Shown in pieces: positions 4,123-41,530 of a stretch of DNA of 64,000 bases. A program made the position numbers and the translations under genes. Position 1 is the stretch's first letter; the number at the start of each line of letters is the position of its first letter. The stretch is from the IMG/VR virus record IMGVR_UViG_3300037453_000152; one strand, 5' to 3'. Under the pieces are notes generated by a model. It made no database searches, had not been told where the DNA came from, and worked only from the letters and a program-made list of their open reading frames with translations. The DNA comes from a virus (lineage: Duplodnaviria; Heunggongvirae; Uroviricota; Caudoviricetes).

Positions 4123-4125
4123 TTA

Positions 4126-8477: not shown

Positions 8478-8495
8478 TGTTTATTATCTCCTTTC

Positions 8496-9375: not shown

Positions 9376-9450
9376 CCTCCCCTTTATTAAGTTTTTCTAC
9401 CTAAAGTTATTAAAAAATACGGTGAATGGTTTAAACAGAAGTAACCAACT

Positions 9451-9479
9451 TTGATTTTATAAAAAAAATATATTATAAT
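9451..9479 (+). promoter_or_regulatory. sigma-A-type promoter (TTGATT-N17-TATAAT) heading the plus-strand early block
   Basis: -35 at 9451-9456 and -10 at 9474-9479. Same architecture recurs at >=9 other sites. Confidence 0.5.
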
Positions 9480-9509
9480 ATATATAGAATGGTGAAAGGG
9501 GTAATAAAA

Positions 9510-11255: not shown

Positions 11256-12029
11256 ATGGGATATATTTATAAAATCACCAATAAAATAAATAATAAGGTG
11301 TATATAGGTTAGACCTGTAAAACCATAGAAGAAAGATATAAGGCTCATTTGACGAAAGCAAGATAGCATATAAATCGTTATTTATACGACGCTATGAATA
11401 AATATGGGTATGATAATTTCTTTGTTTAGAAAATAGAAGAGTGTGATAATAATAAATTAGATGAAAGAGAAATTTATTGGATTGCGTTCTATAAATCTAA
11501 TAATAAAAAGTATGGATATAATATGACAAGTGGCGGCGGTGGCGGAGACACTTGGTCTAAAAATAGTCATAAAAATGAAACTTCTAAAAAAATAAGTGAG
11601 TCAAATAAAGGAAAACATCATCTTACCGAAGAATAGATTTAGAACTTTGCTAGAATAATGAAAGAAAAAAATACAATAAAGATAGATAAAAAAGAATTAG
11701 AAGCAGATATAAAAAGTTTTATGCCAATAGAAGAAATATGTAGAAAATATAAAATAGGAAGAAAAACTTTTTATAATAAATGTAAATTGTTTTTTAATGC
11801 CACTCCAACAGAAATTCGTGGAGATAAATTAAAACATACTAATACAATGAAAATTACTATTGACAAAAGTCAATTAGAGAAAATGATTTTACAAGAAAAA
11901 AGCTTGGAAGAAATGGCTAAATTTTTTAGGGTTAGTAAAGAAACTGTTAGAAGAAATATAGTATAGTATTATGGAAAGAATTTAAGGGACGTGAGAAAAG
12001 ATGTTAAATCCAAAAACCAATCTGCGTGA
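11256..12029 (+). CDS. GIY-YIG homing endonuclease with C-terminal HTH repeats (257 aa, 6 in-frame TAG)
   Basis: N-terminus GYIYKITNKINNKVYIG*T...ERYKAHL...KYGYDNFF, followed by ORF 11658..11966 in the same frame. RBS AAGGAGG. Ends TGA at 12027-12029, overlapping the next gene. Confidence 0.65.
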
Positions 12030-22027: not shown

Positions 22028-22267
22028 ATGGAAAAATAGATTTAGCTAATTAAAAAAGAATTAAAGCCTAATGATATTATAATTGTTAAGTTTGATATAG
22101 AAAAATGGGATATAGAAGAATGTGCTTGCAAATATAATGAAATAAAAGAAAAAATCCGTCATAATCCAGTCATTGGTCTGGTTGATGGTGTTGAATTATA
22201 GTTTGAAGATTGGGAACGTTTATACCAATATGTTATGTCTATTAAACCATAGAGAGGAGAAGATTGA
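22028..22267 (+). CDS. small hypothetical protein (79 codons, 4 in-frame TAG)
   Basis: RBS AGGGAGG then ATG at 22028. Frame open to TGA overlapping the gyrB-like start. Confidence 0.4.
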
Positions 22268-26770: not shown

Positions 26771-28702
26771 ATGACGGCTATGGAAGAAATGCGAAAATTA
26801 GTTGATGAATTAAACTATTTAACCGCAAAATATGATGAAGGTCATTCTGAAATCTCTGACAAGCAATGGGATGATATGTATTTTAAACTCCTTGCTTTAG
26901 AAAATGAAACTAATTTTCGCTATGACGATTCGCCAACTCAACAAATTTCATATGAAGTAGTAACTTCTCTTCCGAAAATTCAACATAACCATAAAATGTT
27001 GTCTTTAGATAAGACAAAGAGCGTGGAAGACGTTCAAAGTTTTATTGGGAATCATGACTATGTTGCTATGGCAAAGATGGATGGTTTAACTTGTTCTTTG
27101 CGTTATTTAAATGGAAAACTAGTTACCGCAGAAACAAGAGGTAATGGCATTATTGGTGAAGATATTACTCATAATGCTAAAGTAATTCCATCAATACCTA
27201 ATGAAGTTGCTTATAAGTCTGAATTAATTGTTGATGGCGAAATAGTGTGCGTAGCACACGATTTTCAAACCTTTGCTAAAGATTTCAAGAATCCAAGAAA
27301 TTTTGCGGCGGGCTCTATTAGACTTTTAGATGCTAATGAGTGCGCCCGCCGCAAATTGACCTTTATCGCTTGGGATGTAGTTAAAGGGTTTGAAGAAGAA
27401 AATTCATTCGTTAAAAAACTTTCTTTATTAAGTCAATATAATTTTTCTATTGTTCCTTGGACGCAAGAAAATATTACTTATGCCATTAAGGATATTCAAG
27501 ACTTATGTTTTGAACAAGGCTATCCAATAGATGGATTAGTATTCAAATTTGACGATATTGACTACGGAAAATCTTTAGGAGAAACTTCCCACCACTTTAA
27601 AAATGCTATTGCTTACAAGTTCTATGATGATGAATATGAGACAACCTTAAAAGATATTGAGTGGTCAATGGGAAGAACCGGTGTATTAACTCCAATAGCA
27701 ATCTATGATGATATTGAAATAGATGGAGCAATTTGTAATAGAGCAAGTTTACATAATTTAAATATTAGAGAAGAATTACTTGGCAATTTTCCTTATAAAG
27801 GAGAAAAAATCTGGATTTATAAGGCTAATATGATAATCCCTCAAATTAGTAAAGCAGAAAAAAGAATTTCTTTTGAAGATTTTCATTTTGATATTCCAAA
27901 AGTCTGTCCTATTTGCGGCGAGCCAACAGAAATAATTACTTCTGACACTAATACTAACGAATTATACTGCTCAAATCCTAATTGCGAAGGCAAATTAATT
28001 AATCAAATTAACCATTTTCTTGGTAAAAAAGGTCTTGACGTTAAGGGAATTTCGGAGGCAACTCTTGAAAAACTGATTAGTTGGGGCTGGGTAAATAGTA
28101 TATTAGATATGTATAATCTTGAGCAATATAAGCAAGAGTGGATTTTAAAGCCGGGTTTTGGTGTTAAATCAGTAGAAAATAATCTAAATGCTATTGCCGC
28201 AAGTAAAGAGTGTCAATTAGATAAATTTATTTGCGCCATTGGAATTCCTCTTATTGGCACATCAATGTCTAAAACTCTCGCAAAAACATTTAAAACTTGG
28301 GAAAGTTTTAGAGACGCAGTAAATTCTCATTTTGATTTTACACTTTTGGAAGACTTCGGCTGGACAACAGAAGATAGTATTTTAAAATTTGACTATTCAC
28401 AGGCTGATGAATTGGCTAAAATATTAAATATTACCTATGAAGAACCAGAAGAGAGTAATAATCAAAGTTTGAAAGATATGAAGATTGCTATTACAGGAAC
28501 TTTACATCATTTTAAGAACCGCGCAGAATTGGAACAAGCAATTGCGGCCGCCGGTGGAAAGAGTGTTTCATCGGTGACAAAAAACACGAGTATCTTAATT
28601 AATAATGATGCTCAATCCAATTCTTCAAAGAATTTGACGGCAAAAAAGTTAAATATCCCAATTCTTACCGAAGAAGAATTTTTAAAAAAATATCTTGACT
28701 AA
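26771..28702 (+). CDS. ligA: NAD-dependent DNA ligase
   Basis: KMDGL adenylation motif, Cys4 zinc finger and C-terminal BRCT. 643 aa. TAG-free. Confidence 0.85.
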   Translation: MTAMEEMRKLVDELNYLTAKYDEGHSEISDKQWDDMYFKLLALENETNFRYDDSPTQQISYEVVTSLPKIQHNHKMLSLDKTKSVEDVQSFIGNHDYVAMAKMDGLTCSLRYLNGKLVTAETRGNGIIGEDITHNAKVIPSIPNEVAYKSELIVDGEIVCVAHDFQTFAKDFKNPRNFAAGSIRLLDANECARRKLTFIAWDVVKGFEEENSFVKKLSLLSQYNFSIVPWTQENITYAIKDIQDLCFEQGYPIDGLVFKFDDIDYGKSLGETSHHFKNAIAYKFYDDEYETTLKDIEWSMGRTGVLTPIAIYDDIEIDGAICNRASLHNLNIREELLGNFPYKGEKIWIYKANMIIPQISKAEKRISFEDFHFDIPKVCPICGEPTEIITSDTNTNELYCSNPNCEGKLINQINHFLGKKGLDVKGISEATLEKLISWGWVNSILDMYNLEQYKQEWILKPGFGVKSVENNLNAIAASKECQLDKFICAIGIPLIGTSMSKTLAKTFKTWESFRDAVNSHFDFTLLEDFGWTTEDSILKFDYSQADELAKILNITYEEPEESNNQSLKDMKIAITGTLHHFKNRAELEQAIAAAGGKSVSSVTKNTSILINNDAQSNSSKNLTAKKLNIPILTEEEFLKKYLD

Positions 28703-28756
28703 TAAAAAAATTTTTTATATAATAAATCTGTAAAAATTAAGGATGAAAAAATTTTA

Positions 28757-28948
28757 ATGAAAGCAAAAGAATTAAGGAAGTTGGCCCAGCAAATGGCTAA
28801 CTTAGAGTTGATTATCGAACGTAGCGACGATACTGAGGAAGTGCGTAAGGCTCAAAACGAGATTATTCACTTATCAGGAAAACTTGACCCAGAAGATATG
28901 TTTGAAATTGACGAATTAATCCAAAATATTTTAGAGAAAAATACTTGA
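28757..28948 (+). CDS. hypothetical protein
   Basis: Intact ORF with its own promoter-like motif upstream. Confidence 0.45.
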   Translation: MKAKELRKLAQQMANLELIIERSDDTEEVRKAQNEIIHLSGKLDPEDMFEIDELIQNILEKNT

Positions 28949-28973
28949 CAAAGAAAAAATTTTTTATTATAAT
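28945..28973 (+). promoter_or_regulatory. sigma-A consensus promoter (TTGACA-N17-TATAAT)
   Basis: -35 at 28945-28950 and -10 at 28968-28973. Confidence 0.55.
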
Positions 28974-29036: not shown

Positions 29037-29303
29037 ATGGCTATGAAGGAAAATTCTAAGAAAGTTCTTGAGTATTTGAAGACTGTCCAGGGTCAGGACG
29101 TTACTGCTGCTGATGTTGCTGAGGCTCTCGGTTTGGAGAAGCGTTCAGTTGATGGCATTTTCACAAGTGCTATTCAGCGCAAGAATCTTGGTATCCGCAC
29201 TCCTGCTGAGATCGAGCTGTCTGATGGCTCTCACAAGGCTGTCAAGTTCCTTAGTCTGACTGATGCTGGCATGGCCTTCGATCCTGACGCGGACGAAGAG
29301 TAA
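29037..29303 (+). CDS. small acidic protein with atypical GC-rich codon usage
   Basis: RBS AAAAGGAGA. Third positions are G/C-rich, unlike the neighbouring genes. Strong terminator downstream. Confidence 0.55.
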   Translation: MAMKENSKKVLEYLKTVQGQDVTAADVAEALGLEKRSVDGIFTSAIQRKNLGIRTPAEIELSDGSHKAVKFLSLTDAGMAFDPDADEE

Positions 29304-29316
29304 TTAAATTATATTA

Positions 29317-29350
29317 GGGGTGGTTTTTTTACCACCCCATTTTATTTATT
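29317..29350 (+). terminator. rho-independent terminator
   Basis: GGGGTGGT / ACCACCCC hairpin plus a T-run. Confidence 0.7.
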
Positions 29351-30360
29351 TGACTATTTTGTATATTTTTCTTGGCTTGATATTGGGTAGTGCAGGAGTT
29401 TATTTAATATTAAGACCAAGATTAAAACAATTTATTTAGTTAGATGAAAAAACCAAAAATTAGAATGAAGAATTAGAACAAAAAAATAAAATATTATCAT
29501 CTGAAAATATTGCTTTATTAGATGAATAGAAAGTTAAACTTAATTAGTTGGCTGGACTTAAAGAATCTTGTTCCGCAGCAGAGTCCAAAAGAGATGAATT
29601 AAATAGGGCTTTACAGAACTTAAAGGAAACTCAAGAAAGGGCTGCAAATGATCTATATAGTTAGGCTTTAAATATCGCTGAAAATAGTTATCAAAAGGAA
29701 GTTGATAGAATTAGCGATGATTTGTTCCAAAAGAGAGAAGAAGCCAAACAGATTTATTTAGACCTTTTGGAAGAGGGCGCAACTGAATACCAAGAAGCAA
29801 TTGAGTCAAAATAGAAAGAGTTTTCATATTGGAACGAACGAATAATTGCGCTTCAGCAAGATGTTTAGACTGCATTAGATGCGGCTTAGCGCAAGTTAGA
29901 AATGGAACAAAAGCAAGATTATTATCGGGTATGTCTGTCAATAGATGATGTAAATGAGGTAAAACGCTTGCGCGAAGTGCTTCCATATTTAAGAGATAAA
30001 ACCCCATTAAACAAAGTTATTTATAAAGTTTATTATGAGCGTCCTCTCACCGACATGATTGGCAGAGTTATTGGCCCAGGCGTTCATACTGGCATTTATA
30101 AAATAACAAATATTGAAAATCAAATGTGTTATGTCGGCCAAGCCGCAAATATCGCAGACCGCTGGAAGCAGCACGTCAAGCGAGGAGTCGGCGCAGAAGA
30201 CTGGACACAAAACAAACTTTACCCAGCAATGTATTCTCTTGGAGTTGAGAATTTTACATTTGAAGTTATAGAAGAGTGTGACCGTTCTCAACTAAATGAC
30301 CGAGAAGATTACTGGCAAAATTATTTTCACGCAAAAGATTTTGGATATAGTATTAAGTGA
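29350..30360 (+). CDS. TM-helix plus coiled-coil protein fused in frame to a C-terminal GIY-YIG nuclease domain (9 in-frame TAG). Start uncertain. ATG 29902 is an alternative internal start
   Basis: Frame has no TAA/TGA from 29308 to TGA 30358. N-terminus LTILYIFLGLILGSAGVYLIL. C-terminus GIYKITN...YVGQAANIADRWKQH...ENFTFEVIEEC. Confidence 0.45.
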
Positions 30361-30369: not shown

Positions 30370-30645
30370 GTGTATAGAGTTATTGATGGTAGAGGCTCCG
30401 GAAAAACGGGCCGTCTGATGTTATTAGCAAAAGAAAACAATGGAGTTTTGGTTTGTTACAATCCAGATGCTATGAGATACAAGGCAAGAGCATATGGATT
30501 AGTTGGTTTTGACATTATATCTTATCGTGATTTTGTAGATAAAAATTATGAAACTGAAAAGCCTGTTTTTATTGATGAATTAGAACTGTTTTTAAAAAGA
30601 GAATTTGGCAATTTTGCAGGTTACTCCTTAACAAATGAGGATTAA
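30370..30645 (+). CDS. small P-loop protein
   Basis: GRGSGKTG motif. Confidence 0.45.
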   Translation: MYRVIDGRGSGKTGRLMLLAKENNGVLVCYNPDAMRYKARAYGLVGFDIISYRDFVDKNYETEKPVFIDELELFLKREFGNFAGYSLTNED

Positions 30646-30647: not shown

Positions 30648-31280
30648 ATGAGTGTAGTAAGTAATGTAAAAATTTATGATTTAGAGGAAAGCATTATTGC
30701 TTCTGGATACCCAATGCGCACCGAGGTAGGGATGCGCGAAATGGAAGAAAAAGACATTTCTCGCGGAAAGAAATTGGTTGATGCTACAAAAACTGGTAAT
30801 CAGGCTCATAATCAGTTTTTAACTGGAATTAGAGTTAATTTTGATCTAACTTTCTCAAATAAGGCCTGGGTTGAAGCGGAGCGGTATCGCTTCCTTGAAT
30901 TCGTTTCTTCGCAGTCTACAATGCATAGAATTACAAAGTTTGACCTTGATAAAGCTTATAACGAGTTTGTAGACCCGCGCATTATTCAAGTTATGAAAGA
31001 AAAAGTAGCAGAATATAATGCGTGGAAAGAAGAGCCAGAAGTAATTATGAATGACTATAGCATTAGTAAAGATGAATATAATGAACTGTTAAGAAGAAAA
31101 TATCTTGAAATTCTTTATTCTAATCCTGCTGGTTTTATTTTAACTGCGCGAATGACCACAAATTATCGCTGTTTGCGCAATATTTACATTCAACGTAAAG
31201 ACCATCGCCTCCCAGAATGGCGCGAATTTTGTAAATGGATTGAGACTCTCCCATTTGCAGAAGAATTTTTGATTAATTGA
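30648..31280 (+). CDS. hypothetical protein
   Basis: Intact 210-aa ORF. Confidence 0.5.
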   Translation: MSVVSNVKIYDLEESIIASGYPMRTEVGMREMEEKDISRGKKLVDATKTGNQAHNQFLTGIRVNFDLTFSNKAWVEAERYRFLEFVSSQSTMHRITKFDLDKAYNEFVDPRIIQVMKEKVAEYNAWKEEPEVIMNDYSISKDEYNELLRRKYLEILYSNPAGFILTARMTTNYRCLRNIYIQRKDHRLPEWREFCKWIETLPFAEEFLIN

Positions 31281-31287: not shown

Positions 31288-31316
31288 TTGATTTTTAAAT
31301 AAAATTTTGATATAAT
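31288..31316 (+). promoter_or_regulatory. sigma-A-type promoter (TTGATT-N17-TATAAT)
   Basis: -35 at 31288-31293 and -10 at 31311-31316. Confidence 0.45.
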
Positions 31317-31707: not shown

Positions 31708-32667
31708 ATGCGTAAGACAATTAATTAGACTCATGTAGAAGGTTATATTTACGAACACAAACTGGAATCTCGTGTAACTGGAGAAAATTCCAAGAACCCT
31801 GGCACCCCATTTATTATGGGCAATCTTGACATTGCAACTGATAATGCAATGACAAATATCGTATCTATCCATTTCACTTATGTAACTCCTACTACCTCTA
31901 AGGGTAGCGCAAACAGCACTTATACCATTCTCAATGATATTGTTAATGGCAAATATAAGACCGTAATGGCAAATGGCAAGGAAAATGCGGCTAAGGTTCG
32001 TATTGACTCTGCTATTGGACTAAATGAGTTCTATTCTAGCCGCAACGGAGCTGAAGAACTGGTTTCTGCAAAGCGCAATGAGGGCGGTTTTATTCATATT
32101 GTTGATATGCTGAATGAGAACGAGAATGAGCGCAATACTTTTAAGGTTGATATGGTTATCACCAGCGTCAATCGCACAGAGGCCAATCCTGATACCAATA
32201 CCGAGGAAAAAGTAACAGTTCATGGTTGTGTCTTTGATTTTAGAAATGCTATTCTTCCTGTTGATTTTATCGCAACAAACCCAGGAGCGATGGATTATTA
32301 TGAGAGCCTGGATGCTTCTCCAAAGCACCCCGTATTCACTAGACTTTGGGGCAGACAGATTTCTCAAACTGTTATCAAGACTTATACCGAAGAGTCTGCT
32401 TGGGGCGAGGATAGCGTAAGAACTGTAACCTCTTCTCGCAAGGAATGGCTTATCACTGGTGGAGCCAAGGAAACATATTCCTATGGTAGCGAAGCCAATG
32501 ACAGCCCAGAAGATTTTGACTTGACTGCAAAGGAACTTGTAAAGGCTATGAGCGACAGAGAGACTTATCTTGCTACGGTAAAGAGCCGTCAAGAAGAGTA
32601 TCAGGCATCCAGAAACACTCCTGCTCCCGCAGCCGCCGCAAGCGATAATACTGGATTCAATTTCTAA
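31708..32667 (+). CDS. putative ssDNA-binding / annealing protein (1 in-frame TAG near the N-terminus)
   Basis: RBS AAAGGAG then ATG at 31708. TAG at 31729. Ends ...DNTGFNF. Lies next to a Sak4-like ATPase. Confidence 0.4.
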
Positions 32668-32687
32668 TAATATGAGGAAGATGCGAT

Positions 32688-33665
32688 ATGGCAATTGATT
32701 TGTTAGCAATTGAGCCGAATAAAGTTTCTAGGGATTTAAGTGGATATATTACTTATATTTTTGGAGCCGCCAAGGTTGGTAAAACAACCTTGTGCTCCAA
32801 ATTCCCTGGCGCTCTAATTCTGGCTTTTGAAAAAGGATATAATACACTGCCTGGCGTTATGGTTCAAGATATTACTCGCTGGAGTGAGTTCAAGGAAGTA
32901 ATTAGAGAACTTAAAAAGCCAGAAGTAAAGACAGTTTTTAAGAGCATTATTATTGATACAATTGATGTTGCCGGTTCACTTTGTGAAAAATATATCTGCA
33001 ATCAACTTGGTATTGATAATATTGGCGATGGTGGATGGTCTAACAATGGCTGGGCCAAGTATAAGAAAGAGTTGGAAGATTGCTTTAGAACAATTACCCA
33101 ACTTGGTTATGCGCTCGTGTTTATTTCTCATGACAAGGATAAGACATTTAAGCGCAAGGACGGCTCAGAGTATAACCAAACTGTGCCTACGGCACAGACT
33201 TCTCTCAACAATATCGCAAAGGATATGGCAGATATTTATGCATATGCCAGATTAGACGATGTTACTGGCGAGCGCACACTTGTTATGCGCTCTTTGGATA
33301 ATAGTGTTGAGTGCGGCTGCCGCTTCAAATATATGAAGCCTGAAATTCCTCTCGGATATGATGAACTGGTTAAGGCTTTAAATGAAGCAATTGACAAAGA
33401 AGCCAAAGAAAATGACAATAAGTATGTAACAGACGAAAGAACAAGCGTTAAGGAAACAACTGAATACGACTATGATGCATTGATGGAAGAGTTCCAAAAT
33501 ATTATTCAGCCGTTGATGCAGAAAGATCCACAAAACAATGGACCAAAGATTGTTTCAATTGTTGAAAAATATCTCGGCAAGGGAAAGAAGATTGCCGATA
33601 CAACTAGAGACCAAGCAGATTTTGTCTATCTGATTGTTACAGAGTTAAAAGATACTCTAAAATAA
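32688..33665 (+). CDS. Sak4-like RecA-fold ATPase (AAA_24)
   Basis: Walker A GAAKVGKTT. 325 aa. TAG-free. Confidence 0.6.
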   Translation: MAIDLLAIEPNKVSRDLSGYITYIFGAAKVGKTTLCSKFPGALILAFEKGYNTLPGVMVQDITRWSEFKEVIRELKKPEVKTVFKSIIIDTIDVAGSLCEKYICNQLGIDNIGDGGWSNNGWAKYKKELEDCFRTITQLGYALVFISHDKDKTFKRKDGSEYNQTVPTAQTSLNNIAKDMADIYAYARLDDVTGERTLVMRSLDNSVECGCRFKYMKPEIPLGYDELVKALNEAIDKEAKENDNKYVTDERTSVKETTEYDYDALMEEFQNIIQPLMQKDPQNNGPKIVSIVEKYLGKGKKIADTTRDQADFVYLIVTELKDTLK

Positions 33666-33666
33666 A

Positions 33667-33699
33667 AAGACAAGTTTAACTTGTCTTTTTATTTTTAAA
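33667..33699 (+). terminator. rho-independent terminator
   Basis: AAGACAAGTT / AACTTGTCTT hairpin plus a T-run. Confidence 0.6.
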
Positions 33700-33711
33700 G
33701 GATGATATAAT

Positions 33712-34233
33712 ATGGCAAAACATATTGTAAAATGTTTTTATTGTAACGAGAAGTTTGATGCAAATAAAGAAGATTTTGTAATGATAAATGCTCGGCGCTA
33801 CGCTCATAAGGCCTGCGCCGAGCAGGCGCAAAAAAATAAAAGCGAAGAAGAAATTGAAAAAGAAAAGTTAGAGCAATATATAAAATATTTGTTCAACATA
33901 GATAAATTAACTGTTAAAATTTAGAAGCAAATTGAACAATACGTTAAAGAAAATCATTATACATATTCTGGAATAAGACGAAGTTTAACTTATTTTTATG
34001 AAGTAAAAAATAATTCAATAGATAAGGCTAATGGCGGCATTGGCATTGTTCCTTGGATTTACAACACAGCAAGACAATATTACTATGATTTGTGGGTGGC
34101 ACAGCAAAAAAACGCTGATAAAGAATTAGTTGATTATAAGCCTAATGAAATTGTAATTCAAATTTCTCCACCCGAGCGCAAGATGAAAAAGAAGAAATTC
34201 TTTAGTTTTTTAGATAGGGAGGTTGAAAAATGA
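33712..34233 (+). CDS. hypothetical protein with N-terminal Cys/His motif (1 in-frame TAG)
   Basis: ORF 33712..33924 extends through TAG to TGA, overlapping the dnaB-like start as ATGA. Confidence 0.45.
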
Positions 34234-35759
34234 GTTCTAAATATGTTGATACAACTGCGATTATGCAGGTTATTGGAACTGTATTTAATAACCCTTCCCT
34301 TTTGGATGAAACAGATAAATATACAATAACAGACGATGATTTTCCAGACCAGTTTCACAAGATTGTATTTGGTTCAATTTTTAAATTACACGAATTAGGC
34401 GTTCAAAAAATTTCTTTAATAAACATTAATGACTTTTTATCAACTCGCCCAAAAAGTGAAGCGGTTTATAAGACCCAAAAAGGCGACGAATGGCTATTGA
34501 AGATAGCTGAAGCAGCGACAGAAGAGACCTTTAATTACTATTATAACAGATTAAAAAAGTTCTCTTTGCTTAGAGCATATGACAATTTTGGAATTGATGT
34601 AACAGATATTTACGACCCTGATAATATCTTGGATTTAAAAAAGAAACAAATCCAAGAGGATTCATTAGATAATTCATCATTAAATCAATTAGCCGATTTA
34701 ATAGATAATAAGATTGACGCTATTCGTATAAAATATGTTGATGAATGCTACGATGAATCAGAGCAGGCCGGAGACGGTATTTTTGACTTAATTGAAAGTT
34801 TTAAATTTCGTCCAGAAGTAGGTGTGCCATTATATGGCCCATTTGTGAATACTGTTACTCGCGGAGCGAGATTAAAGAAATTCTACTTGCGCTCGGCCGC
34901 TACTGGCGTCGGCAAGACGCGTTCAATGATTGCGGATGCCTGTTATATCGGCTGCTCTAAAATATATGATGAATTTTTAGGTTGGATAAAAACAGGCGCG
35001 GCGCAGCCGACATTATTTATTACAACCGAACAAGAAAAATCTGAAATTCAAACAATGATGTTGGCATTTCTTTCTAATGTTAATGAGGAGCATATCATTA
35101 ATGGTAAATATGAAGGAAATGAAGAAGAAAGAGTAATGGAAGCGGCAAGACTGTTATCAGAAAGTCCATTATTTATTGATGAACTGCCAGATTTTTCCTT
35201 GCAAGACGTGGAAAATCACATTAAAAAGAATATCCGTGAGCATGATATTAAATATGTATTCCATGATTATATTATGACTTCTATGAAAATTCTTGAAGAA
35301 GTCACTCGCCGCAGTGGTGGCGTGAGATTGAGAGAAGATAATATTCTCTTTATGCTATCCAATAGATTAAAGGATTTGTGTAATCAATATGGAATATTTA
35401 TTATGTCTGCTACACAGTTAAACGCAGACTATCAAGACGCGGAAACCCCCGACCAAAATCTTCTTCGCGGGGCAAAAAGTATTGCTGATAAGATTGACTA
35501 TGGCAGTTTGCTTCTGTTGGCAAGGGATAGAGATATTCAAGCCCTTGAACCAATCCTGTCAAAATCAACATTCCCAAAGCCTATGATAAAAATGTCTATT
35601 TATAAAAATAGACGAGGCCGCTACAAAGGTATTTATCTCTGGTGCAAGGCAGATTTAGGCACCTGCCGCATTGAGCCTATGTTTGCTACTGGATGGGATT
35701 ATGAGTTAATCCAAATGGACGATATAAAAATTAAATTAGTTGAAGAAAGTGCTTTTTAA
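34230..35759 (+). CDS. dnaB: DnaB-like replicative helicase
   Basis: Walker A AATGVGKT in a RecA-like C-terminal domain. 509 aa. TAG-free. Confidence 0.75.
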   Translation: MSSKYVDTTAIMQVIGTVFNNPSLLDETDKYTITDDDFPDQFHKIVFGSIFKLHELGVQKISLININDFLSTRPKSEAVYKTQKGDEWLLKIAEAATEETFNYYYNRLKKFSLLRAYDNFGIDVTDIYDPDNILDLKKKQIQEDSLDNSSLNQLADLIDNKIDAIRIKYVDECYDESEQAGDGIFDLIESFKFRPEVGVPLYGPFVNTVTRGARLKKFYLRSAATGVGKTRSMIADACYIGCSKIYDEFLGWIKTGAAQPTLFITTEQEKSEIQTMMLAFLSNVNEEHIINGKYEGNEEERVMEAARLLSESPLFIDELPDFSLQDVENHIKKNIREHDIKYVFHDYIMTSMKILEEVTRRSGGVRLREDNILFMLSNRLKDLCNQYGIFIMSATQLNADYQDAETPDQNLLRGAKSIADKIDYGSLLLLARDRDIQALEPILSKSTFPKPMIKMSIYKNRRGRYKGIYLWCKADLGTCRIEPMFATGWDYELIQMDDIKIKLVEESAF

Positions 35760-35771
35760 AGGAGACAAATG

Positions 35772-35943
35772 AATGGAAAAAGTAGGTAGCGTTGAATATA
35801 TTATGCCAAAGAGCTTTGCTAATGAACTACTTAAATCTCGTAAAAATTCTGAAAAAAATATTAATCCGCAGGATTTCTTAATTCAATATGTTAATGATGA
35901 ATGTGGATTATTATATAAATGCACAAAGGTAACTATTTCATAA
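35772..35943 (+). CDS. small hypothetical protein
   Basis: 57-aa ORF with a TAA immediately followed by the primase ATG. Confidence 0.35.
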
Positions 35944-37050
35944 ATGTTAGTATTTGATAAACAAGAAATCCGAGAGAGTTTATCAATTTATAATATATAG
36001 GAATTGTTAGAAGATTGGGGCGGTGAGCCTGAGCGATGCCCAACTGGGCTCATTGCCCGCACAATCTGCCATAATGGCATTAATGAAGATGCTTCGCGCA
36101 AACTTTATTATTATGAAAATACAGGATTGTTTAGATGTTATACGGGTTGTGATGAACCAGTATTTGATATATTTCAACTTTGTATTAAAGTAATGGGTTT
36201 ACAGCATCATTTACAATATGATTTAAATGATGCTGTAAGATGGATAGCGTAGCATTTTGGTTTTGCAGGCAGAGAAGAAAATAGTCCTTCGTCCGATGGA
36301 TTAGAAGATTGGAAAATTTTGGCAAACTATTCTCGGATAAAAGATATACAAGTATCTGCTCCTAATATTGTATTAGAAGAATATGATGATACTATTTTAA
36401 ATAATTTCAATTATGACGTAAAAATTACGCCTTGGTTAAATGAGGGTATTTCATAGCAAGTATTGGAACACGCAGAAATTGGATTTTATCCAGGGGGCGA
36501 TTAGATTACCATACCCCATTTTGATAAAAATGGCAGATTTATTGGTTTGCGCGGGCGCACAGTAGTTGCGGAAGACGCAGAAAGATATGGTAAATATAGA
36601 CCAATTAAAGTAAATGGAATTTTATATAATCATCCTCTTGGATTAAATTTATATAATTTTAATAATTCAAGATGTATCATTCCAAAAGTAAGAAAAGCAA
36701 TAGTATTTGAGGGCGAAAAAAGTGCGCTTTTATACCAAACATATTTTGGATTTGAAAGTGATATATCTGTAGCCTGCTGCGGCAGCAGCATATCTTCATA
36801 TTAGATATAGTTATTAATTGATGCTGGAGCGCAAGAAATAATAATTGCGTTTGATAGATAGTTTCAGTATATTGGCGATGATGAATATCGCCACTTGATT
36901 AGTAATCTTAAAAAGATATAGGCTAAATATAAGAACTATGTTCAAATATCTTATATTTTAGACAAAAATAAAATAACGGATTATAAATCATCACCTATTG
37001 ACCACGGTAAAGATAAATTTTTACAATTATTCAAAGAACGTATGTAGTAA
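35944..37050 (+). CDS. dnaG: DnaG-like primase with CHC2 zinc finger and Toprim (9 in-frame TAG)
   Basis: CPTGLIARTICHNG...CYTGCDE and Toprim IVFEGEKSALL. ORFs 36004..36252 and 36547..36804 are in the same frame with no TAA/TGA until 37048. Confidence 0.65.
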
Positions 37051-37135
37051 GGTGTGAGGTCAATAGTGATTAATTTATATATTAAAATTTTTAAATAGTT
37101 TGATGGTGATTTAATGAAAGGAGGTTGAGTATTCT

Positions 37136-38920
37136 ATGGAATATCAACTTTTAACACCTAGCATCCCGGCAATTGAGGATTTTACGCCGGTTGAACAGGT
37201 GTTTATGACTCGGGGTATGCACCCGAAAGACATTAATCACTATCTTAACACTACGATAGAGGACATTCTTGATCCAGCACTATTGGATAATATTGATGAT
37301 GGGGCAAAAATGTTAATCAAGCATCTGGCTCTTGGAGATAAAATCTTCGTATAGGTAGATCCTGATGTAGATGGATTTACTGCCGCAGCCACATTATTAA
37401 ATTATCTTAATTGTCTATTCCCAGGCACAGTGCAATAGAATATCATCTATCGTGTCCAAGAAGGCAAATAGCACGGTATTATCTTGGATACAATCCCAGC
37501 AGATGCAAAACTAGTAATTATACCAGATGCTGGCAGCAATCAATATGACGAACACAAAGCGCTCTACGAGCGCGGAGTTGATGTTCTCGTATTGGACCAT
37601 CACGAGGCAGAACAAGTATCGGAATATGCTTGTGTGATTAACAATCAATTAAGCAATTATCCAAACAAATCATTGTCTGGCGTAGGCGTGGTTTATAAAT
37701 TTTGTCAATATTTAGACAAATTATTAAACAAATCCTACGCAGATGATTTACTAGATCTTGTGGCTATTGGAATTATATCAGATATGATGGACATTAAGAA
37801 CTTTGAAACAAAGGAAATAATTGATCTTGGATTAACACATTTTAAGAATGAATTTTTAAAAGCCTTCGCGGAATCGTAGAAATATTATTTAAATGATGGA
37901 GTAACACCGTTTAAAGTATCTTTCTACATTGCCCCTTACATCAATGCGACTGTTCGTGTTGGTAGTTTAGAGGAAAAAATACTCTTGTTTGAAGCAATGC
38001 TAGACTTTAAAGCCCTTGAATATATACCATCGACCAAGAGAGGGTGTAAAGGAAAAGGAATCTTTGAAACAAGAGTAGATCAGGCCTGTAGAAATTGCAA
38101 AAATATCAAAAATAGACAAGCCAAAGCAAGGGATACAAGCCTAAAAATGATTGAGGACATCATTATAAGGGATAATTTAATAGTGAACCCTGTTTTAATC
38201 ATTTAGTTAGATGATCCAGTAGACGAGAATATTACTGGACTAATTGCTAATGAAATTATGGACGCATATTAGCGACCTGTTTTGTTATTAAATAGGTATA
38301 TTGAAGTTGATGAAGAAACAGGTGAAATCACAAAATTAGCGTGGCGCGGTTCTGGAAGAAATTCCCAGTATTCAAGACTTTAGAATTTGCGTGAATTTTT
38401 TGCAAATTGTGGTTATGTGGAATACGCACAAGGTCACGCTTCTGCATTTGGTATCTCTATTTTAGAAGAGAAATTAGATGCATTTAAAAAATATGTTTAT
38501 AATCAATTAAAGGACTTTGATTTTTCCAAATGTTATTATGTTGATTTTATTTGGAGCACCGCTGATGCGGAGCAAAACAAAGATACCATTTTAAAATTAG
38601 GTGAGTTAAATAGCATCTGGGGCCAAGGCCTCGCGCGTCCGCGCGTAGCATTGGAACACATTGTCGTCACCGCAGAAAATCTGCGCTTAATGGGTGAAGA
38701 TAAAAACAAACCCACCTTAAAAATATCCTTATCAAATGACGTGTCCTTAATTAAATTTAGGTCGAGTCATGAAGAGTATGAAAAATTATACTCTGAAAAA
38801 GGTTGTGTAATTATTGATATCGTTGGCACTTGTAATAATAATGTGTGGAACGGTATAATTAGTCCTCAAATTGAAATTGAAGATTATGAAATTGTAAGTA
38901 AGTCTGCCTATTACTTTTAA
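37136..38920 (+). CDS. recJ: RecJ-like DHH-family ssDNA exonuclease (7 in-frame TAG)
   Basis: DPDVDG and LVLDHHE motifs. Four track ORFs (37136, 37484, 37985, 38387) share one frame with no TAA/TGA. Confidence 0.65.
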
Positions 38921-38967
38921 TTTCACACAACTTTCGGCCTAATTGAAGAAATTAGGAGGAAAGTCTT

Positions 38968-39711
38968 ATGAAAAAGAAAATATTAGTAGTGCTTTTAACA
39001 GTTCTTATTATTGTTGGATGCACAAACATGGCTTATGCAAGTTCTCCATTTGTTGAGACAGAGGGATTATCAATTGACGAGTTCTTTGAGGGGAACCATG
39101 CTGAATTAATTGCGCGACAGGCTGCGGCGCACGAAAGAGCCGAGGCGGCTCGCGCAATGGGTTATCCAGAAGATTGTTGTATAATCAAATGCGCTCAACG
39201 TGAATGGCAAATGGCTCAAAAAGAAAGAGAATTATTAAATACCGAAGACAACTATAACACTTGGGCTATGAGATTCGCAGAATATCCATACGCAACATAT
39301 GTATGGTTATACTTAACGAGAACACTTGAATATAACGATTATGTTGCGGCTGGTATAATTGGTAATATGATGGCTGAAGTCGGTGGTGGCACATTATCAT
39401 TACAATATTGGCTTTATGGAGGCGGACGCAGTTATTATGGTATTTGTCAGTGGGCAAAAATTTATTCCACTTTACCAGATGGCTCTGATTTAAGAGTTCA
39501 ATTAGAGTATTTAAAAGATACAATTGAATACGAATTAAACACATTTGGCTTTGTTTTTGCTTATGGATATAAATATAAGCAATTTTTAGAATTGACAAAT
39601 ACAAATGATACGGCTTTAATGTTCGCTAAATGCTATGAACGCTGCGCTGCTTTTACCTATTATTCAAGACAGGTATATGCGGCAAAGGCTTATGATTACT
39701 TTGTAGATTAA
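38968..39711 (+). CDS. secreted lipoprotein (lipobox IVGC), function unknown
   Basis: Signal peptide MKKKILVVLLTVLIIVGC. Confidence 0.55.
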   Translation: MKKKILVVLLTVLIIVGCTNMAYASSPFVETEGLSIDEFFEGNHAELIARQAAAHERAEAARAMGYPEDCCIIKCAQREWQMAQKERELLNTEDNYNTWAMRFAEYPYATYVWLYLTRTLEYNDYVAAGIIGNMMAEVGGGTLSLQYWLYGGGRSYYGICQWAKIYSTLPDGSDLRVQLEYLKDTIEYELNTFGFVFAYGYKYKQFLELTNTNDTALMFAKCYERCAAFTYYSRQVYAAKAYDYFVD

Positions 39712-39717
39712 TTTACA

Positions 39718-39752
39718 GGGCTATGGGTTACACCATAGCCCCTTTTTTATTT
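39718..39752 (+). terminator. rho-independent terminator
   Basis: GGGCTATGG / CCATAGCCC hairpin plus a T-run. Confidence 0.7.
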
Positions 39753-39765
39753 GGGGGGTTAAAGA

Positions 39766-39939
39766 ATGATAGTTCAAATTATAGATAAAGATACAGGAAA
39801 AATTATTAGTGAATGGGAAGCAGATGAAAGAGATTTTAAACTGAGCGGGCCGGTGACGTTCAGCGCAACCGACAGCACAAACCAAAAATTGGTTTTCAAA
39901 ATTCTAGACCAAAAACTTGACACTGAGGAAAAAATATAA
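39766..39939 (+). CDS. small hypothetical protein
   Basis: RBS GGGGGTTAAAGA. 57 aa. Confidence 0.35.
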   Translation: MIVQIIDKDTGKIISEWEADERDFKLSGPVTFSATDSTNQKLVFKILDQKLDTEEKI

Positions 39940-39945
39940 TATAAT
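39916..39945 (+). promoter_or_regulatory. sigma-A promoter (TTGACA-N18-TATAAT)
   Basis: -35 at 39916-39921 and -10 at 39940-39945. Confidence 0.45.
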
Positions 39946-39978
39946 ATATGTAGAAATAAAAATAGGAGTAATTAATAA

Positions 39979-40317
39979 ATGACAAGAGAATATGCAACTA
40001 AGTGGATAAAAGAACAATGTGATTATGACGCAGCTTTTAAATACAATGTGATGCTATTAGATCAGTATGATTTTAGCGAGTTTTTAACAGATGGTAGAAG
40101 TTTATGGAATCTGCGCGATGCTATTGAAGAGAAATATGACAAAGAGTTTTGGGATAAATATCACATGTACGTCTTTGATAATCTCGACGGCGAAGATACT
40201 TGTCAATATTTCGCAAGCAGATATAATGTATGGTTCCAAGAGTATACAGATTGGGTGGTGAGACATGATAATGGAGCTTACGAAAAAACAAAGCGATGGA
40301 TTAAAGATAGCCCTTGA
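39979..40317 (+). CDS. hypothetical protein
   Basis: Intact ORF. Confidence 0.5.
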   Translation: MTREYATKWIKEQCDYDAAFKYNVMLLDQYDFSEFLTDGRSLWNLRDAIEEKYDKEFWDKYHMYVFDNLDGEDTCQYFASRYNVWFQEYTDWVVRHDNGAYEKTKRWIKDSP

Positions 40318-41476
40318 ACGTTATCGTAATGGCGAGAAATATACAGTTATATCGGGTTACGCAGGAACAGGTAAGTCAACGCTGATAAAATTTATCATAT
40401 CTGCTATGGGATTATATTTAGATTAGGTTCGTTATATAGCATATACTGGAAAAGCAGCAAATGTATTAAAAAATAAGGGTTGCCCTGATGCTACAACAGC
40501 ACATAAATTAATCTATCACGCAAAACTTATGCCCAACGGCAAGTATTTCTTTACTCCAAAAAGACCATCGGAGATGGAGAGAGAAATCAAAGTCGTGGTA
40601 GTAGACGAAGTTTCAATGCTTCCAAAAGATATGTGGAATTTGTTATGTTCTTATCACTTCTATATCCTCGCCTGCGGCGATCCAGAGTAGTTACCTCCCG
40701 TCCCCGATGGTTCTGGCGAAGACCCAAACAATCATGTTCTTGATAACCCGCATATCTTCCTTGACGAAATTATGCGCCAAGCGCAAGAGAGCGAAATCAT
40801 TCGCTTATCAATGCACGTGCGCGAAGGTAAGCCAGTAGCGACGTTCCCAGCGTAGAATGAAGAAGTTATGTTAATCAACCGAAATGATTTAAATACATCT
40901 ATGCTAACATGGGCTGACTAGATTTTGTGCGCAACGAACAGAACAAAGAATAATTTAAATTAGCAATTGCGGCAAGCCTACCAGTTTGCGGCCGAGCCTC
41001 AACTGGGAGACAAGCTAATCAATCTCCATAATGAATGGGACATATGCTCTAATTTGGAGAATCCATTAACCAATGGCATTATTGGTAAGGTCATATAGAT
41101 GGAGAAGCAAGACTGGAAGTATCCCTGGTAGATACGCGGTGAGTAGTTCTCTGTTCCTGTGTTGGTAGCAACAATATCAGGCGACGAAGAAGGAGAGCAG
41201 TTTGATTTTCTACCTTTTGATTATAACGAAATACTCACAGGATAGCCAAGTCTAACAGGTAGAGAAGAGTATACCATTAGAAAAAAATACGAAATGGCAG
41301 TGCCGCTGCACGGCAACTTTGGATACGCTATTACGGTGTGGAAAGCGTAGGGTAGCGAGTGGGATAAAGTTCTACTCTTCCAAGAATCTGGCTGGCCGCG
41401 TCTGCCAGACGAACGCCGCAGATATATGTATACTGGTATAACTCGCGCAGTTGAAAAGTTAGTAGTAGTGGTTTGA
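40265..41476 (+). CDS. Dda/RecD-like SF1B DNA helicase (403 aa, 10 in-frame TAG)
   Basis: Walker A GYAGTGKST, VVVDEVSM, and motif III CGDPE(TAG)LPPV with TAG at 40688-40690. No TAA/TGA until 41474. Confidence 0.7.
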
Positions 41477-41501
41477 TTTATATTAAAAATTATGATATAA
41501 T
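41473..41501 (+). promoter_or_regulatory. sigma-A-type promoter (TTGATT-N17-TATAAT)
   Basis: -35 at 41473-41478 and -10 at 41496-41501. Confidence 0.45.
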
Positions 41502-41530
41502 ATAAGTATGATAAAGATGGAGGTTTGATA

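What the first reader, a model, noticed from the sequence alone, without database searches (positions are those of the whole stretch)
29308..30360. Unusual fusion: TM helix plus long coiled coil plus C-terminal GIY-YIG nuclease, with the highest TAG density and no canonical start
One frame is open from 29308 to the TGA at 30358, with no TAA/TGA over ~350 codons. The first ~185 codons contain 9 TAGs and no in-frame ATG. The only candidate starts are TTG at 29350 or GTG at 29320, inside the upstream terminator hairpin. The segment encodes a hydrophobic helix (LTILYIFLGLILGSAGVYLIL) followed by a heptad-rich coiled coil. The C-terminal 150 residues are a complete GIY-YIG domain (GIYKITN...YVGQA...RWKQH...ENFTFEVIEEC). 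The internal ATG at 29902 has no RBS. A membrane-anchored GIY-YIG nuclease would be unusual. Alternatively a TAG-terminated upstream gene is read through into a homing endonuclease, which would indicate incomplete or regulated amber suppression.
Basis: seen in the sequence. Interest (0 to 1): 0.6.

Follow-up and report, generated by a model that had tools for sequence, protein, structure and literature searches.

The report
Phage membrane-tethered GIY-YIG nuclease gene
This is one genuine gene of a gut phage that reads TAG as glutamine; it encodes a nuclease held on a long stalk at the inside of the cell membrane, is conserved in hundreds of related phages, and has an untested role that may be destroying DNA near the membrane.

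Summary
The open frame is real. It holds 8 in-frame TAGs, not 9, and ends at TGA 30358-60. The gene runs 29350 (TTG) to 30360 and gives a 336-aa protein. The parts are an N-terminal TM helix, a ~158-aa acidic coiled-coil stalk, a conserved 57-aa two-helix module and an I-TevI-type GIY-YIG core.

The window comes from a TAG=Gln (code 15) phage. Seven of the 8 TAGs align with Gln in the closest relatives. Orthologues start with ATG at the position of the TTG. All 90 related loci (89 fetched plus the window) carry one unbroken frame. About 20 have no TAG and lie in locally standard-code DNA. This refutes the idea of an upstream gene read through into a homing endonuclease.

The family is large (811 representatives at E<=1e-30) and almost only in phages. 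It keeps a fixed place in a replication block like that of phage SPbeta. An intrinsic terminator ends 8-14 nt before the start in 48 of 51 orthologues, and none has a Shine-Dalgarno site. In 44 recoded relatives the gene holds 23 TAG per 1000 codons, against 0-3 in the neighbouring replication genes. This suggests attenuated, suppressor-dependent expression.

The closest functional analogue is the bacterial defence nuclease SNIPE, but the family is not a member. The role is inferred: exclusion of incoming DNA, host DNA breakdown or replication processing.

The parts
28945..28973 (+). Sigma-70-type promoter (TTGACA, 17 nt, TATAAT; 12 of 12 matches) in front of the upstream 88-aa gene. It is the likely source of transcripts that reach the nuclease gene.
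29037..29303 (+). Upstream 88-aa gene with a strong SD and no TAG. It has no family assignment, only weak Pfam hits (Cas9_a, z-alpha). A homologue lies directly upstream of the nuclease gene in 53 of 59 distinct loci.
29317..29348 (+). Intrinsic-terminator-like hairpin (GGGGTGGT/ACCACCCC, 8 pairs, 29317-29338) with a T-rich tail that ends 1 nt before the start codon. An equivalent hairpin with different stem sequences is present in 48 of 51 distinct orthologues.
29350..30360 (+). Complete gene for the membrane-tethered GIY-YIG nuclease. It starts at TTG and stops at TGA (336 aa with TAG=Gln). The 8 in-frame TAG codons lie at 29437, 29461, 29527, 29545, 29662, 29812, 29866 and 29887.
29353..29412 (+). 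N-terminal transmembrane helix (TILYIFLGLILGSAGVYLIL). [quoted passage not shown]
29413..29919 (+). Juxtamembrane basic patch and long helical stalk. The stalk is 158 +/- 6 aa in the family and acidic, and the window's copy has no Pro. The a/d heptad hydrophobic fraction is 0.69, against 0.56 in shuffles. AF2 models it as a single continuous helix.
29920..30090 (+). Conserved 57-aa module (DYYRVCLS...LREVLPYLRDKTPLNKVIYKVYYERPLTDMIGRV). It is mildly basic, has 84% consensus frequency and has no match in Pfam or the PDB. pTM 0.87 suggests it packs against the nuclease core.
30091..30357 (+). GIY-YIG catalytic core of the I-TevI type. The equivalents of I-TevI Y6, Y17, R27, H31 and E75 are kept, and N90 is replaced by an invariant Ser.
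30370..30645 (+). Downstream 91-aa gene (GTG start, SD GAGG inside the end of the nuclease gene) with a Walker-A-like GRGSGKT motif. It is probably co-transcribed and lies directly downstream in 40 of 59 loci.
30648..31280 (+). 210-aa gene (phrog_6721, unknown function). It is the last gene of the promoter-less unit before the next promoter-like site at 31288-31316.

Best explanation
The region 29350-30360 is one ordinary protein-coding gene of a large phage (relatives are 130-200 kb) that reads TAG as glutamine and probably infects Bacillota (Clostridia).

Shown:
- The product has an N-terminal membrane anchor, a ~158-residue coiled-coil stalk (my estimate is about 23 nm if fully helical), a family-specific 57-residue module, and an I-TevI-type GIY-YIG nuclease core with its catalytic residues intact.
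- The gene is a fixed member of a conserved replication block: GyrB, GyrA, ligase, 63-aa, 88-aa, this gene, 91-aa, 210-aa, 114-aa, YorF, AAA_24, YorH, DnaB, primase, RecJ.

Inferred from sequence:
- The nuclease is cytoplasmic and tethered to the membrane (N-out/C-in).
- Expression is kept low and delayed by three layers. The gene has no promoter of its own and begins in the U-tract of the upstream gene's terminator. It has no Shine-Dalgarno site. In recoded lineages it is full of TAG codons, so it needs the phage's amber suppressor, while its neighbours avoid TAG.

Inferred by analogy with SNIPE:
- The tether confines a non-sequence-specific DNA endonuclease to a shell under the membrane. There it can cut DNA that enters or lies at the cell periphery, such as superinfecting phage or other foreign DNA, without reaching the phage's own replicating genome.

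Confidence in the gene structure and architecture is about 0.95. Confidence in an active membrane-tethered DNA nuclease is about 0.7. Confidence in the exclusion role is about 0.35. The figure given below is for the whole statement.
For: Code and gene structure:
- Many long ORFs in the window are open only if TAG is sense.
- Seven of the 8 TAGs align with Gln in the closest homologues.
- The nearest annotated phage, Phass-1, is filed under the 'code 15 clade' and carries tRNA-Sup-CTA genes.
- All 90 loci analysed (89 fetched plus the window) have one unbroken frame. About 20 orthologues have no TAG and lie in locally standard-code DNA.
- Orthologues place ATG at the position of the window's TTG.

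Architecture:
- AF2 of the 88%-identical orthologue gives pLDDT 85.5, with helix 2-188, a two-helix module and an alpha/beta core.
- The window's own C-terminal 155 aa give pLDDT 92 and pTM 0.87.
- The catalytic Y, Y, R, H and E are invariant.
- Charge asymmetry across the TM and conserved stalk length support the topology and tether.

Core status:
- 811 representatives at E<=1e-30.
- 123 IMG/VR loci, against 2 MAG contigs among about 185,000 species genomes.
- Conserved synteny.
- 11 of 11 evaluable YorF-anchored loci carry the gene.
- In one relative a homing-endonuclease insertion targets the gene's catalytic core.

Expression layers:
- The hairpin is present in 48 of 51 orthologues and an SD in 0 of 51.
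- TAG runs at 23.4 per 1000 codons, against 0-2.7 in GyrA, ligase, the 114-aa gene, YorF, AAA_24 and DnaB.
- Borges et al. describe recoding as a way to delay translation.

Analogy: SNIPE has a TM, a middle domain and a C-terminal GIY-YIG nuclease. Its membrane anchoring prevents self-cleavage, and it cuts DNA during injection.
Against: - No experiment exists on any family member, and the substrate (DNA, RNA or branched DNA) is unknown.
- The family shows no detectable homology to SNIPE beyond the GIY-YIG superfamily. No DUF4041 or T5orf172 hit was listed for any of 60 members, and there was no PD-lambda-1 hit in PADLOC.
- The gene is strictly conserved, its C-terminal half is nearly invariant, and it sits in a replication block. 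This looks more like core DNA metabolism than an arms-race exclusion gene.
- Superinfection exclusion functions are usually early, whereas the TAG load and the terminator suggest delayed, low expression.
- The I-TevI Asn90 equivalent is Ser in all members, so activity is not guaranteed.
- The TAG richness could partly reflect fast evolution of a Gln-rich stalk rather than selection for gating. TAG makes up 39% of Gln codons in the N-terminal part and 25% in the C-terminal part.
- The hairpin has not been shown to terminate transcription.
Confidence: 0.45

Rival explanations
1. The protein is a host-takeover nuclease. It degrades or nicks host chromosomal DNA, as the GIY-YIG enzyme T4 EndoII does, to shut off the host and supply nucleotides. 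The membrane tether, delayed expression or a DNA modification would protect the phage genome.
For: - The gene lies among nucleotide and DNA metabolism genes: NrdD in the window, and thymidylate synthase, UDG and a methyltransferase-like gene in relatives.
- It is core and conserved, as expected for a metabolic function.
Against: - A nuclease held on a stalk of about 23 nm at the membrane is poorly placed to reach the bulk nucleoid.
- Host DNA degradation enzymes are normally early and soluble, whereas this gene is attenuated and TAG-rich.
- No self-protecting DNA modification pathway was identified in the window.
Confidence: 0.2
2. The protein belongs to the phage replication or recombination machinery. 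A membrane-attached factor, as phi29 p16.7 is in outline (TM + coiled coil + DNA-binding domain; from my own knowledge, not tested here), would organise replicating DNA at the membrane. Its nuclease would nick or resolve replication or recombination intermediates.
For: - The gene has a fixed position inside a replication block like that of phage SPbeta, between ligase and YorF, AAA_24, DnaB, primase and RecJ.
- 11 of 11 evaluable loci with YorF also have it.
- The module and nuclease are extremely conserved, which suggests a conserved partner or substrate.
- GIY-YIG enzymes include structure-specific nucleases such as Slx1 and UvrC.
Against: - The neighbours that make up the replisome avoid TAG, but this gene does not. 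This separates its timing or dosage from theirs.
- The nuclease core is closest to homing-endonuclease catalytic domains, which cut duplex DNA.
Confidence: 0.2
3. Two translation units are involved. A short TAG-terminated membrane or coiled-coil gene is occasionally read through into, or merely abuts, a free-standing or degenerate GIY-YIG homing endonuclease.
For: - In the window all 8 TAGs lie in the first 180 codons and none in the nuclease part.
- The nuclease core is of the homing-endonuclease type and is 39% identical to the window's own free-standing HEG.
- The GenBank annotation of Phass-1 calls only the C-terminal 144 aa.
Against: - About 20 orthologues have no TAG at all and are single standard-code ORFs of 316-330 aa.
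- Orthologues L005, L013, L047 and L088 carry TAGs inside the module or nuclease part.
- There is no DNA-binding domain after the core, unlike real homing endonucleases.
- The position is fixed in all relatives, with no presence/absence polymorphism.
- No SD or conserved start precedes the nuclease part.
- TAG positions align with conserved Gln.
Confidence: 0.02
4. The protein is a catalytically dead scaffold. Its GIY-YIG fold is kept for DNA or protein binding only, and it serves as a membrane anchor or spacer.
For: - The I-TevI Asn90 equivalent is replaced by Ser in every member.
- An inactive membrane-anchored GIY-YIG-like protein has been proposed in Mycoplasma (PMC13621843).
Against: - The two Tyr, the Arg, the His and the Glu that form the GIY-YIG active site are invariant in 60 diverse members.
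- The layered restraint on expression fits a toxic enzyme.
Confidence: 0.08

Closest known systems
SNIPE (PD-lambda-1), the E. coli membrane-bound nuclease that cleaves phage DNA during injection (Nature 2026, PMC13190303)
   Same: Both are single polypeptides with a TM helix near the N-terminus, an elongated middle part, a DNA-side module next to the nuclease, and a C-terminal GIY-YIG nuclease facing the cytoplasm. In SNIPE the tether prevents cleavage of resident DNA.
   Different: - There is no detectable sequence homology outside the GIY-YIG superfamily, and no DUF4041 hit was listed.
- The core here is of the I-TevI type.
- The middle part is a plain 158-aa coiled coil plus a new 57-aa module.
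- The gene is encoded by a phage as a core gene of its replication block, not by bacteria as an accessory defence gene.
- No interaction partners are known.
I-TevI and related GIY-YIG homing endonucleases (TIGR01453, PF01541)
   Different: - It has no C-terminal linker or DNA-binding domain and carries an N-terminal anchor instead.
- It is not mobile, not intron-associated and keeps a fixed position.
- Asn90 is replaced by Ser.
- The window has a true homing endonuclease of this type elsewhere (11256-12029).
T4 endonuclease II (DenA) and PD-T4-3, GIY-YIG nucleases used in phage-host conflict
   Different: They are soluble proteins with no membrane anchor or stalk. Sequence identity is low (9-14%). 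They tell self from non-self by DNA modification, which is not known to apply here.
Uzume (UzuA), a single-gene defence system with a C-terminal GIY-YIG domain
   Same: There is a weak PADLOC hit (E 1.7e-6) with the GIY-YIG domain at the C-terminus of a protein of similar size (184-275 of 278). phrog_26160 gives the same alignment span.
   Different: Only the nuclease core matches, and the N-terminal ~180 residues do not align. The Uzume mechanism is uncharacterised in the papers I could search.
N-terminal TM + coiled-coil tethers such as ATP synthase subunit b, ZapG/YhcB and DivIC (and RNase Y and phi29 p16.7, cited from my own knowledge)
   Same: They share a single N-terminal TM followed by a long cytoplasmic helical stalk. 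Weak profile hits are ZapG-like in 10 of 60 members and ATP synthase b at E about 0.1.
   Different: These are generic architecture-level matches below the family cut-offs. None of these proteins carries a GIY-YIG domain.

Membership tests
GIY-YIG nuclease superfamily (PF01541) | Sequence match above the curated threshold | tested here: met
   PF01541 scores 38.3 bits against a cut-off of 22.6. All 60 members of A3 match.
GIY-YIG nuclease superfamily (PF01541) | The alpha/beta GIY-YIG fold | tested here: met
GIY-YIG nuclease superfamily (PF01541) | Catalytic residues (GIY Tyr, YIG Tyr, Arg, His/Tyr, Glu, Asn) | tested here: inconclusive
   The equivalents of I-TevI Y6, Y17, R27, H31 and E75 are invariant. 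The N90 equivalent is an invariant Ser. Activity is not testable here.
GIY-YIG homing endonucleases (I-TevI type, TIGR01453) | Catalytic domain joined by a linker to a C-terminal sequence-tolerant DNA-binding domain | tested here: not met
   The protein ends about 5 residues after the core. TIGR01453 matches only positions 2-87 of 215.
GIY-YIG homing endonucleases (I-TevI type, TIGR01453) | Mobility: intron-encoded or free-standing with patchy presence between relatives | tested here: not met
   The position is the same in all related loci. It is present in 11 of 11 evaluable YorF-anchored loci.
SNIPE / PD-lambda-1 | Transmembrane segment near the N-terminus with the nuclease in the cytoplasm | tested here: met
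   A TM lies at aa 2-21. Charge is about +3.4 after it and 0 before it. Topology is by the positive-inside rule only.
SNIPE / PD-lambda-1 | DUF4041 middle domain (PF13250) | tested here: not met
   There is no Pfam hit at E<=1 for the window's product. DUF4041 is not among the families listed for the 60 members. The 57-aa module has no PDB match. A profile-profile or AFDB comparison could not be run.
SNIPE / PD-lambda-1 | C-terminal GIY-YIG nuclease homologous to that of SNIPE | tested here: inconclusive
   A GIY-YIG core is present, but PADLOC returned no PD-Lambda-1 hit at E<=1. I did not hold the SNIPE sequence for a direct comparison.
SNIPE / PD-lambda-1 | Bacterial defence gene that blocks phage by cutting DNA during injection | not testable with these tools
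   The gene is phage-encoded and almost absent from bacterial genomes (2 MAG contigs). Function needs experiments.
Code 15 (TAG=Gln) recoded phages | In-frame TAGs in conserved genes align with Gln in standard-code homologues | tested here: met
   Seven of the 8 TAGs align with Gln. TAG-sense reading restores long ORFs for primase, RecJ, a helicase and tail fibre genes.
Code 15 (TAG=Gln) recoded phages | Phage-encoded suppressor tRNA(CUA) | tested here: not met
   There is no tRNA in the 64-kb window. The window covers only part of the genome. The distant relative Phass-1 has two tRNA(CTA) genes about 400 nt downstream of its family member.

The most novel reading that the evidence does not exclude
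A large clade of gut phages carries, as a core gene, its own SNIPE-like weapon. This would be a nuclease tethered about 23 nm under the membrane that destroys DNA arriving at the cell periphery, such as rival phages or plasmids. Its production would be switched on only after the phage has changed the cell's genetic code, through TAG codons, terminator read-through and an SD-less start. That would make it a phage-encoded, code-gated superinfection-exclusion nuclease, evolved independently of the bacterial SNIPE from a homing-endonuclease catalytic domain.
Probability: 0.3. Interest if true: 0.7.

Novelty: new variant of a known kind. Interest (0 to 1): 0.5.

Why it matters
Membrane-bound nucleases that tell foreign DNA from resident DNA by location were first described only in 2026, as SNIPE in bacteria. 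This family has hundreds of members and builds the same layout from different parts: an I-TevI-type core, a new 57-aa module and a stalk of conserved length. It sits on the phage side of the conflict, as a fixed gene of the replication block.

If the family acts on incoming DNA, location-based discrimination would also be a phage strategy for excluding rivals. If it acts on host or replicating DNA, it would point to membrane-linked DNA processing in a major group of uncultured gut phages.

The gene also offers a clean natural test of the idea that stop-codon recoding times gene expression. It is one TAG-rich gene inside a nearly TAG-free operon, and it has standard-code orthologues for comparison.

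On the practical side, standard-code annotation truncates this gene, as in the Phass-1 GenBank record.

Tried and rejected
I used the 88%-identical orthologue P0001 and then the TAG-free C-terminal part of the window itself.
- Foldseek against AFDB50 was not available, so I could not compare the model with DUF4041 or SNIPE models.
- Megablast of 14 kb of the window against GenBank phages found nothing. tblastn found only Phass-1 beyond the nuclease core.
- My first translation of L001 was in the wrong frame and was redone.
- A regex filter for orthologues caught only 29 of 90 loci. I replaced it with an HMM scan.
- My simple gene caller mis-split the target at an internal TTG 29968 preceded by GAGG. 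I rejected that start because the GAGG comes from Glu-Val codons that are Glu-Ile in relatives, and the start would fall inside the conserved module.
- I considered a leaderless mRNA from a promoter in the T-tract and rejected it. There is no consistent -10 box across orthologues, and the window has TTG, which suits leaderless initiation poorly.
- I considered an SD function for the G-rich 5' arm of the hairpin. I set it aside because the arm lies 25-35 nt from the start and is paired.
- Rfam found no RNA family at the start region (one sub-threshold sRNA hit) and no group I intron in the L092 insertion.
- I suspected the 210-aa neighbour was ThyX-like from a motif resemblance. Pfam, PHROGs and PDB sequence searches did not support this.
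- The absence of TAG from the window's nuclease part is not significant. I estimate about 2.8 expected from composition, and relatives do have TAGs there.
Full report
**1. The observation**

The frame beginning at 29308 is open to the TGA at 30358-60 if TAG is read as sense. It contains 8 in-frame TAGs, not 9, at codons 30, 38, 60, 66, 105, 155, 173 and 180 counted from TTG 29350. From the window's base composition I estimate the chance of 350 codons free of TAA and TGA at about 4e-9.

The first in-frame ATG is at 29902 and has no Shine-Dalgarno site. In-frame alternatives are GTG 29320, inside the hairpin, and TTG 29350, 29359, 29377 and 29383.

The GIY-YIG match is real. PF01541 scores 38 bits against a cut-off of 22.6, and TIGR01453 scores 66 bits against 56. 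The match covers only the last ~89 residues.

The claim of the highest TAG density does not hold for the window as a whole. The gene ranks about 12th, at 23.8 per 1000 codons.

**2. The genetic code**

Many long ORFs in the window are open only with TAG as sense. Examples are 54639-57098 with 12 TAGs, 40262-41476 with 10 and 35944-37050 with 9. Others have none, including the 1317-aa ORF at 41531-45484, both gyrase subunits and DnaB. The TAG-containing ORFs are genuine genes: primase, RecJ, an AAA_30/UvrD-type helicase and Laminin_G tail proteins.

In the target, 7 of the 8 TAGs align with Gln in the closest homologues, several at conserved positions such as YSQAL and AAQRK.

No tRNA lies in the window. 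The only annotated relative, Phass-1, is filed under the 'Caudoviricetes code 15 clade' and has two tRNA(CTA) genes just downstream of its family member (PMC10607447).

**3. One gene, not two**

A homology search returned 5230 hits. Many cover the full length at 329-336 aa, and the best is 88% identical. They are collinear with the window's product and begin with Met exactly at the residue encoded by TTG 29350. At the DNA level the orthologues use ATG there.

An HMM scan covered 90 loci, the 89 fetched plus the window. It found a single uninterrupted TAG-sense frame in every one.
- About 20 distinct orthologues contain no TAG at all. They lie in loci where TAG-sense reading adds almost no ORF length, so these are standard-code phages with the same 316-330-aa protein.
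- Several recoded orthologues carry TAGs inside the module or nuclease part.

No relative has a TAA or TGA between the parts, and there is no frameshift. The read-through idea is therefore rejected.

The one split copy, L092, is broken inside the nuclease core by a 1.15-kb insertion that encodes its own GIY-YIG homing endonuclease. Such elements usually target conserved, important genes.

**4. Anatomy of the protein**

The AF2 model of orthologue P0001 has pLDDT 85.5. It shows one helix from residue 2 to 188, two helices at 198-240 and an alpha/beta core at 248-331. Segment analysis of 60 members gives the following:

| Segment | Property |
|---|---|
| TM (aa 2-21) | Net charge about +3.4 just after it and 0 before it, implying N-out/C-in |
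| Stalk | 158 +/- 6 aa, net charge -10.7; in the window's copy no Pro and a/d heptad hydrophobic fraction 0.69 vs 0.56 +/- 0.03 in shuffles; sequence variable, length conserved |
| Module | 57 aa, mildly basic, 84% consensus frequency |
| Nuclease core | 89 aa, 88% consensus frequency, no length variation |

The I-TevI residues Y6, Y17, R27, H31 and E75 are invariant in the family, and N90 is an invariant Ser. There is no DNA-binding domain after the core. Two BFVD viral proteins match over nearly their full length.

**5. Distribution and context**

The family has 811 representatives at E<=1e-30 among 50%-identity clusters, and most of the top 150 match end to end. IMG/VR holds 123 loci, mostly on contigs of 130-200 kb. 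Among about 185,000 species-representative genomes there are only two MAG contigs, one labelled Clostridia and one 'Mollicutes'.

Strong SD sites on most window genes and the host prediction for Phass-1 fit a Bacillota host.

Gene order is conserved: GyrB, GyrA, ligase, 63-aa, 88-aa, this gene, 91-aa, 210-aa, 114-aa wHTH, YorF, AAA_24, YorH, DnaB, primase, RecJ. All 11 evaluable loci fetched through YorF also carry the gene. It is therefore a core gene of the replication block and not a mobile or accessory element.

**6. Expression signals**

A 12/12 sigma-70-type promoter at 28945-28973 drives the 88-aa gene. A terminator-like hairpin at 29317-29338 follows, and its T-tract runs into the TTG. 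The next promoter-like site is at 31288. The target, the 91-aa gene and the 210-aa gene therefore have no promoter of their own.

Across 51 distinct orthologues:
- 48 have a strong hairpin plus T-tract ending a few bases before the start. Median MFE of the upstream 60 nt is -17.7 kcal/mol, against -8.5 for random 60-mers.
- The stem sequences differ widely while the structure is kept.
- None has an SD motif.

In 44 recoded relatives the gene carries 23.4 TAG per 1000 codons, which is 33% of its Gln codons. The figures for neighbours are 0.0 for GyrA, 0.1 for ligase, 0.4 for the 114-aa gene, 1.2 for YorF, 1.8 for DnaB and 2.7 for AAA_24. Only the 63-aa gene is similar, at 20.2.

Borges et al. 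proposed that recoding delays translation of late genes until the code change is in place. Taken together, the signals indicate low, delayed expression, which suits a potentially toxic nuclease. This is an inference, and no transcript or protein data exist.

**7. Mechanism**

- Shown: the gene structure, the architecture, the intact active-site residues, the phage-core status and the conserved regulatory layout.
- Inferred: the product is an active DNA endonuclease without sequence-specific targeting, held by a dimeric stalk of about 23 nm on the cytoplasmic face of the membrane.
- Best-supported role, by analogy with SNIPE: it cuts DNA that enters or lies at the cell periphery and spares the resident phage genome. 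In SNIPE, removing the TM makes the nuclease attack resident DNA, and the enzyme cuts DNA only during injection.

The arguments against this role are real. The near-invariance of the C-terminal half, the fixed place in the replication block and the late-type TAG load fit a core DNA-metabolism function at least as well. The rivals are host DNA breakdown, as by T4 EndoII, and processing of membrane-associated replication intermediates. I give each about 0.2, and the exclusion role about 0.35.

**8. Comparison with known systems**

The protein works like SNIPE in outline but is not a member of that family. No DUF4041 or T5orf172 hit was listed for any of 60 members, and there is no PD-lambda-1 hit in PADLOC. 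The core is closest to homing-endonuclease catalytic domains and is 39% identical to the window's own free-standing homing endonuclease at 11256-12029. This suggests a domesticated homing-endonuclease nuclease domain. The protein lacks the DNA-binding domain and the mobility that define homing endonucleases. A weak UzuA hit covers the core only.

**9. Verdict**

The 'read-through into a homing endonuclease' idea is wrong, and the odd start is the true start. The gene belongs to an uncharacterised but very common phage family. It is a new variant of the recently recognised class of membrane-tethered nucleases, and its terminator, SD-less start and TAG layout are conserved. Interest is moderate at 0.5: the architecture has a precedent, but the phage-side, core-gene setting and the code-gated expression are new and can be tested.

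Noticed in passing
L092 3299-5530 (IMGVR_UViG_3300028048_000053): The family gene is split inside the GIY-YIG core, after '...GMCYVGQAV', by a ~1.15-kb insertion. The insertion carries a 307-aa TAG-sense ORF (4228-5151) that is itself a free-standing GIY-YIG homing endonuclease with an HTH. Rfam finds no group I intron at E<0.01, so the nature of the insertion is unresolved.
   Followed up: partly
window 11256-12029 (+): This is a canonical I-TevI-like homing endonuclease (N-terminal GIY-YIG plus C-terminal HTH modules, 257 aa) with 6 in-frame TAGs. It is 39% identical to the target's nuclease core.
   Followed up: partly
L005 1872-4840 (GCA_030153665.1 contig JASEKM010000267.1; same DNA as L010): The gyrB gene of a relative is interrupted between the Toprim part and the GyrB_C part by a 237-aa GIY-YIG ORF. 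This looks like a homing-endonuclease or intron insertion.
   Followed up: no
L007 7600-8447 (Phass-1, OQ749652.1 63005-63850): The GenBank annotation calls only the C-terminal 144 aa of the Phass-1 family member. The TAG-sense ORF is 326 aa with 8 TAGs. A tRNA-Leu and two tRNA(CTA) suppressor genes lie about 300-500 nt downstream.
   Followed up: partly
window 28695-28723, 28945-28973 and 31288-31316 (+): Three near-consensus sigma-70-type promoters (11/12, 12/12, and 10/12 with an extended TG) lie in front of small TAG-free genes of 63, 88 and 114 aa. These look like strong early promoters read by the host RNA polymerase.
   Followed up: partly
window 30370-30645 (+): This 91-aa ORF directly downstream of the nuclease gene has a Walker-A-like GRGSGKT motif and a hhhhDE motif (VFIDELE). 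It is very small for a P-loop protein. It is conserved next to the nuclease gene in 40 of 59 loci and gives only a weak hit to phrog_1828.
   Followed up: partly
window 22028-22267 (+) and 28757-28948 (+): The small ORF at 22028-22267 has the highest TAG density in the window (4 in 79 codons). The 63-aa gene at 28757-28948 is TAG-free here but TAG-rich in relatives (20 per 1000 codons). It is the only other TAG-rich gene of the block.
   Followed up: no
L047 and L089 (IMGVR_UViG_3300032167_000002, 402 kb): One 402-kb viral contig carries two different copies of the family gene about 190 kb apart. This could be two related genomes joined in assembly or a true duplication.
   Followed up: no
window 31708-45484 (+): The gene order YorF, AAA_24, YorH, DnaB-like helicase, primase, RecJ-like, then (after a few genes) a 1317-aa ORF resembles the yorF-yorL replication module of Bacillus phage SPbeta. 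The comparison is from my own knowledge of SPbeta. I presume the 1317-aa ORF is a Pol III alpha-like polymerase, but I did not scan it.
   Followed up: partly
window 1-9500 and 50700-64000 versus 10000-50000: Coding strand and GC skew switch together. Genes lie on the minus strand with negative skew at both ends, and on the plus strand with positive skew in the middle. The minus-strand block at 54639-63392 encodes TAG-rich tail-fibre-like proteins.
   Followed up: no
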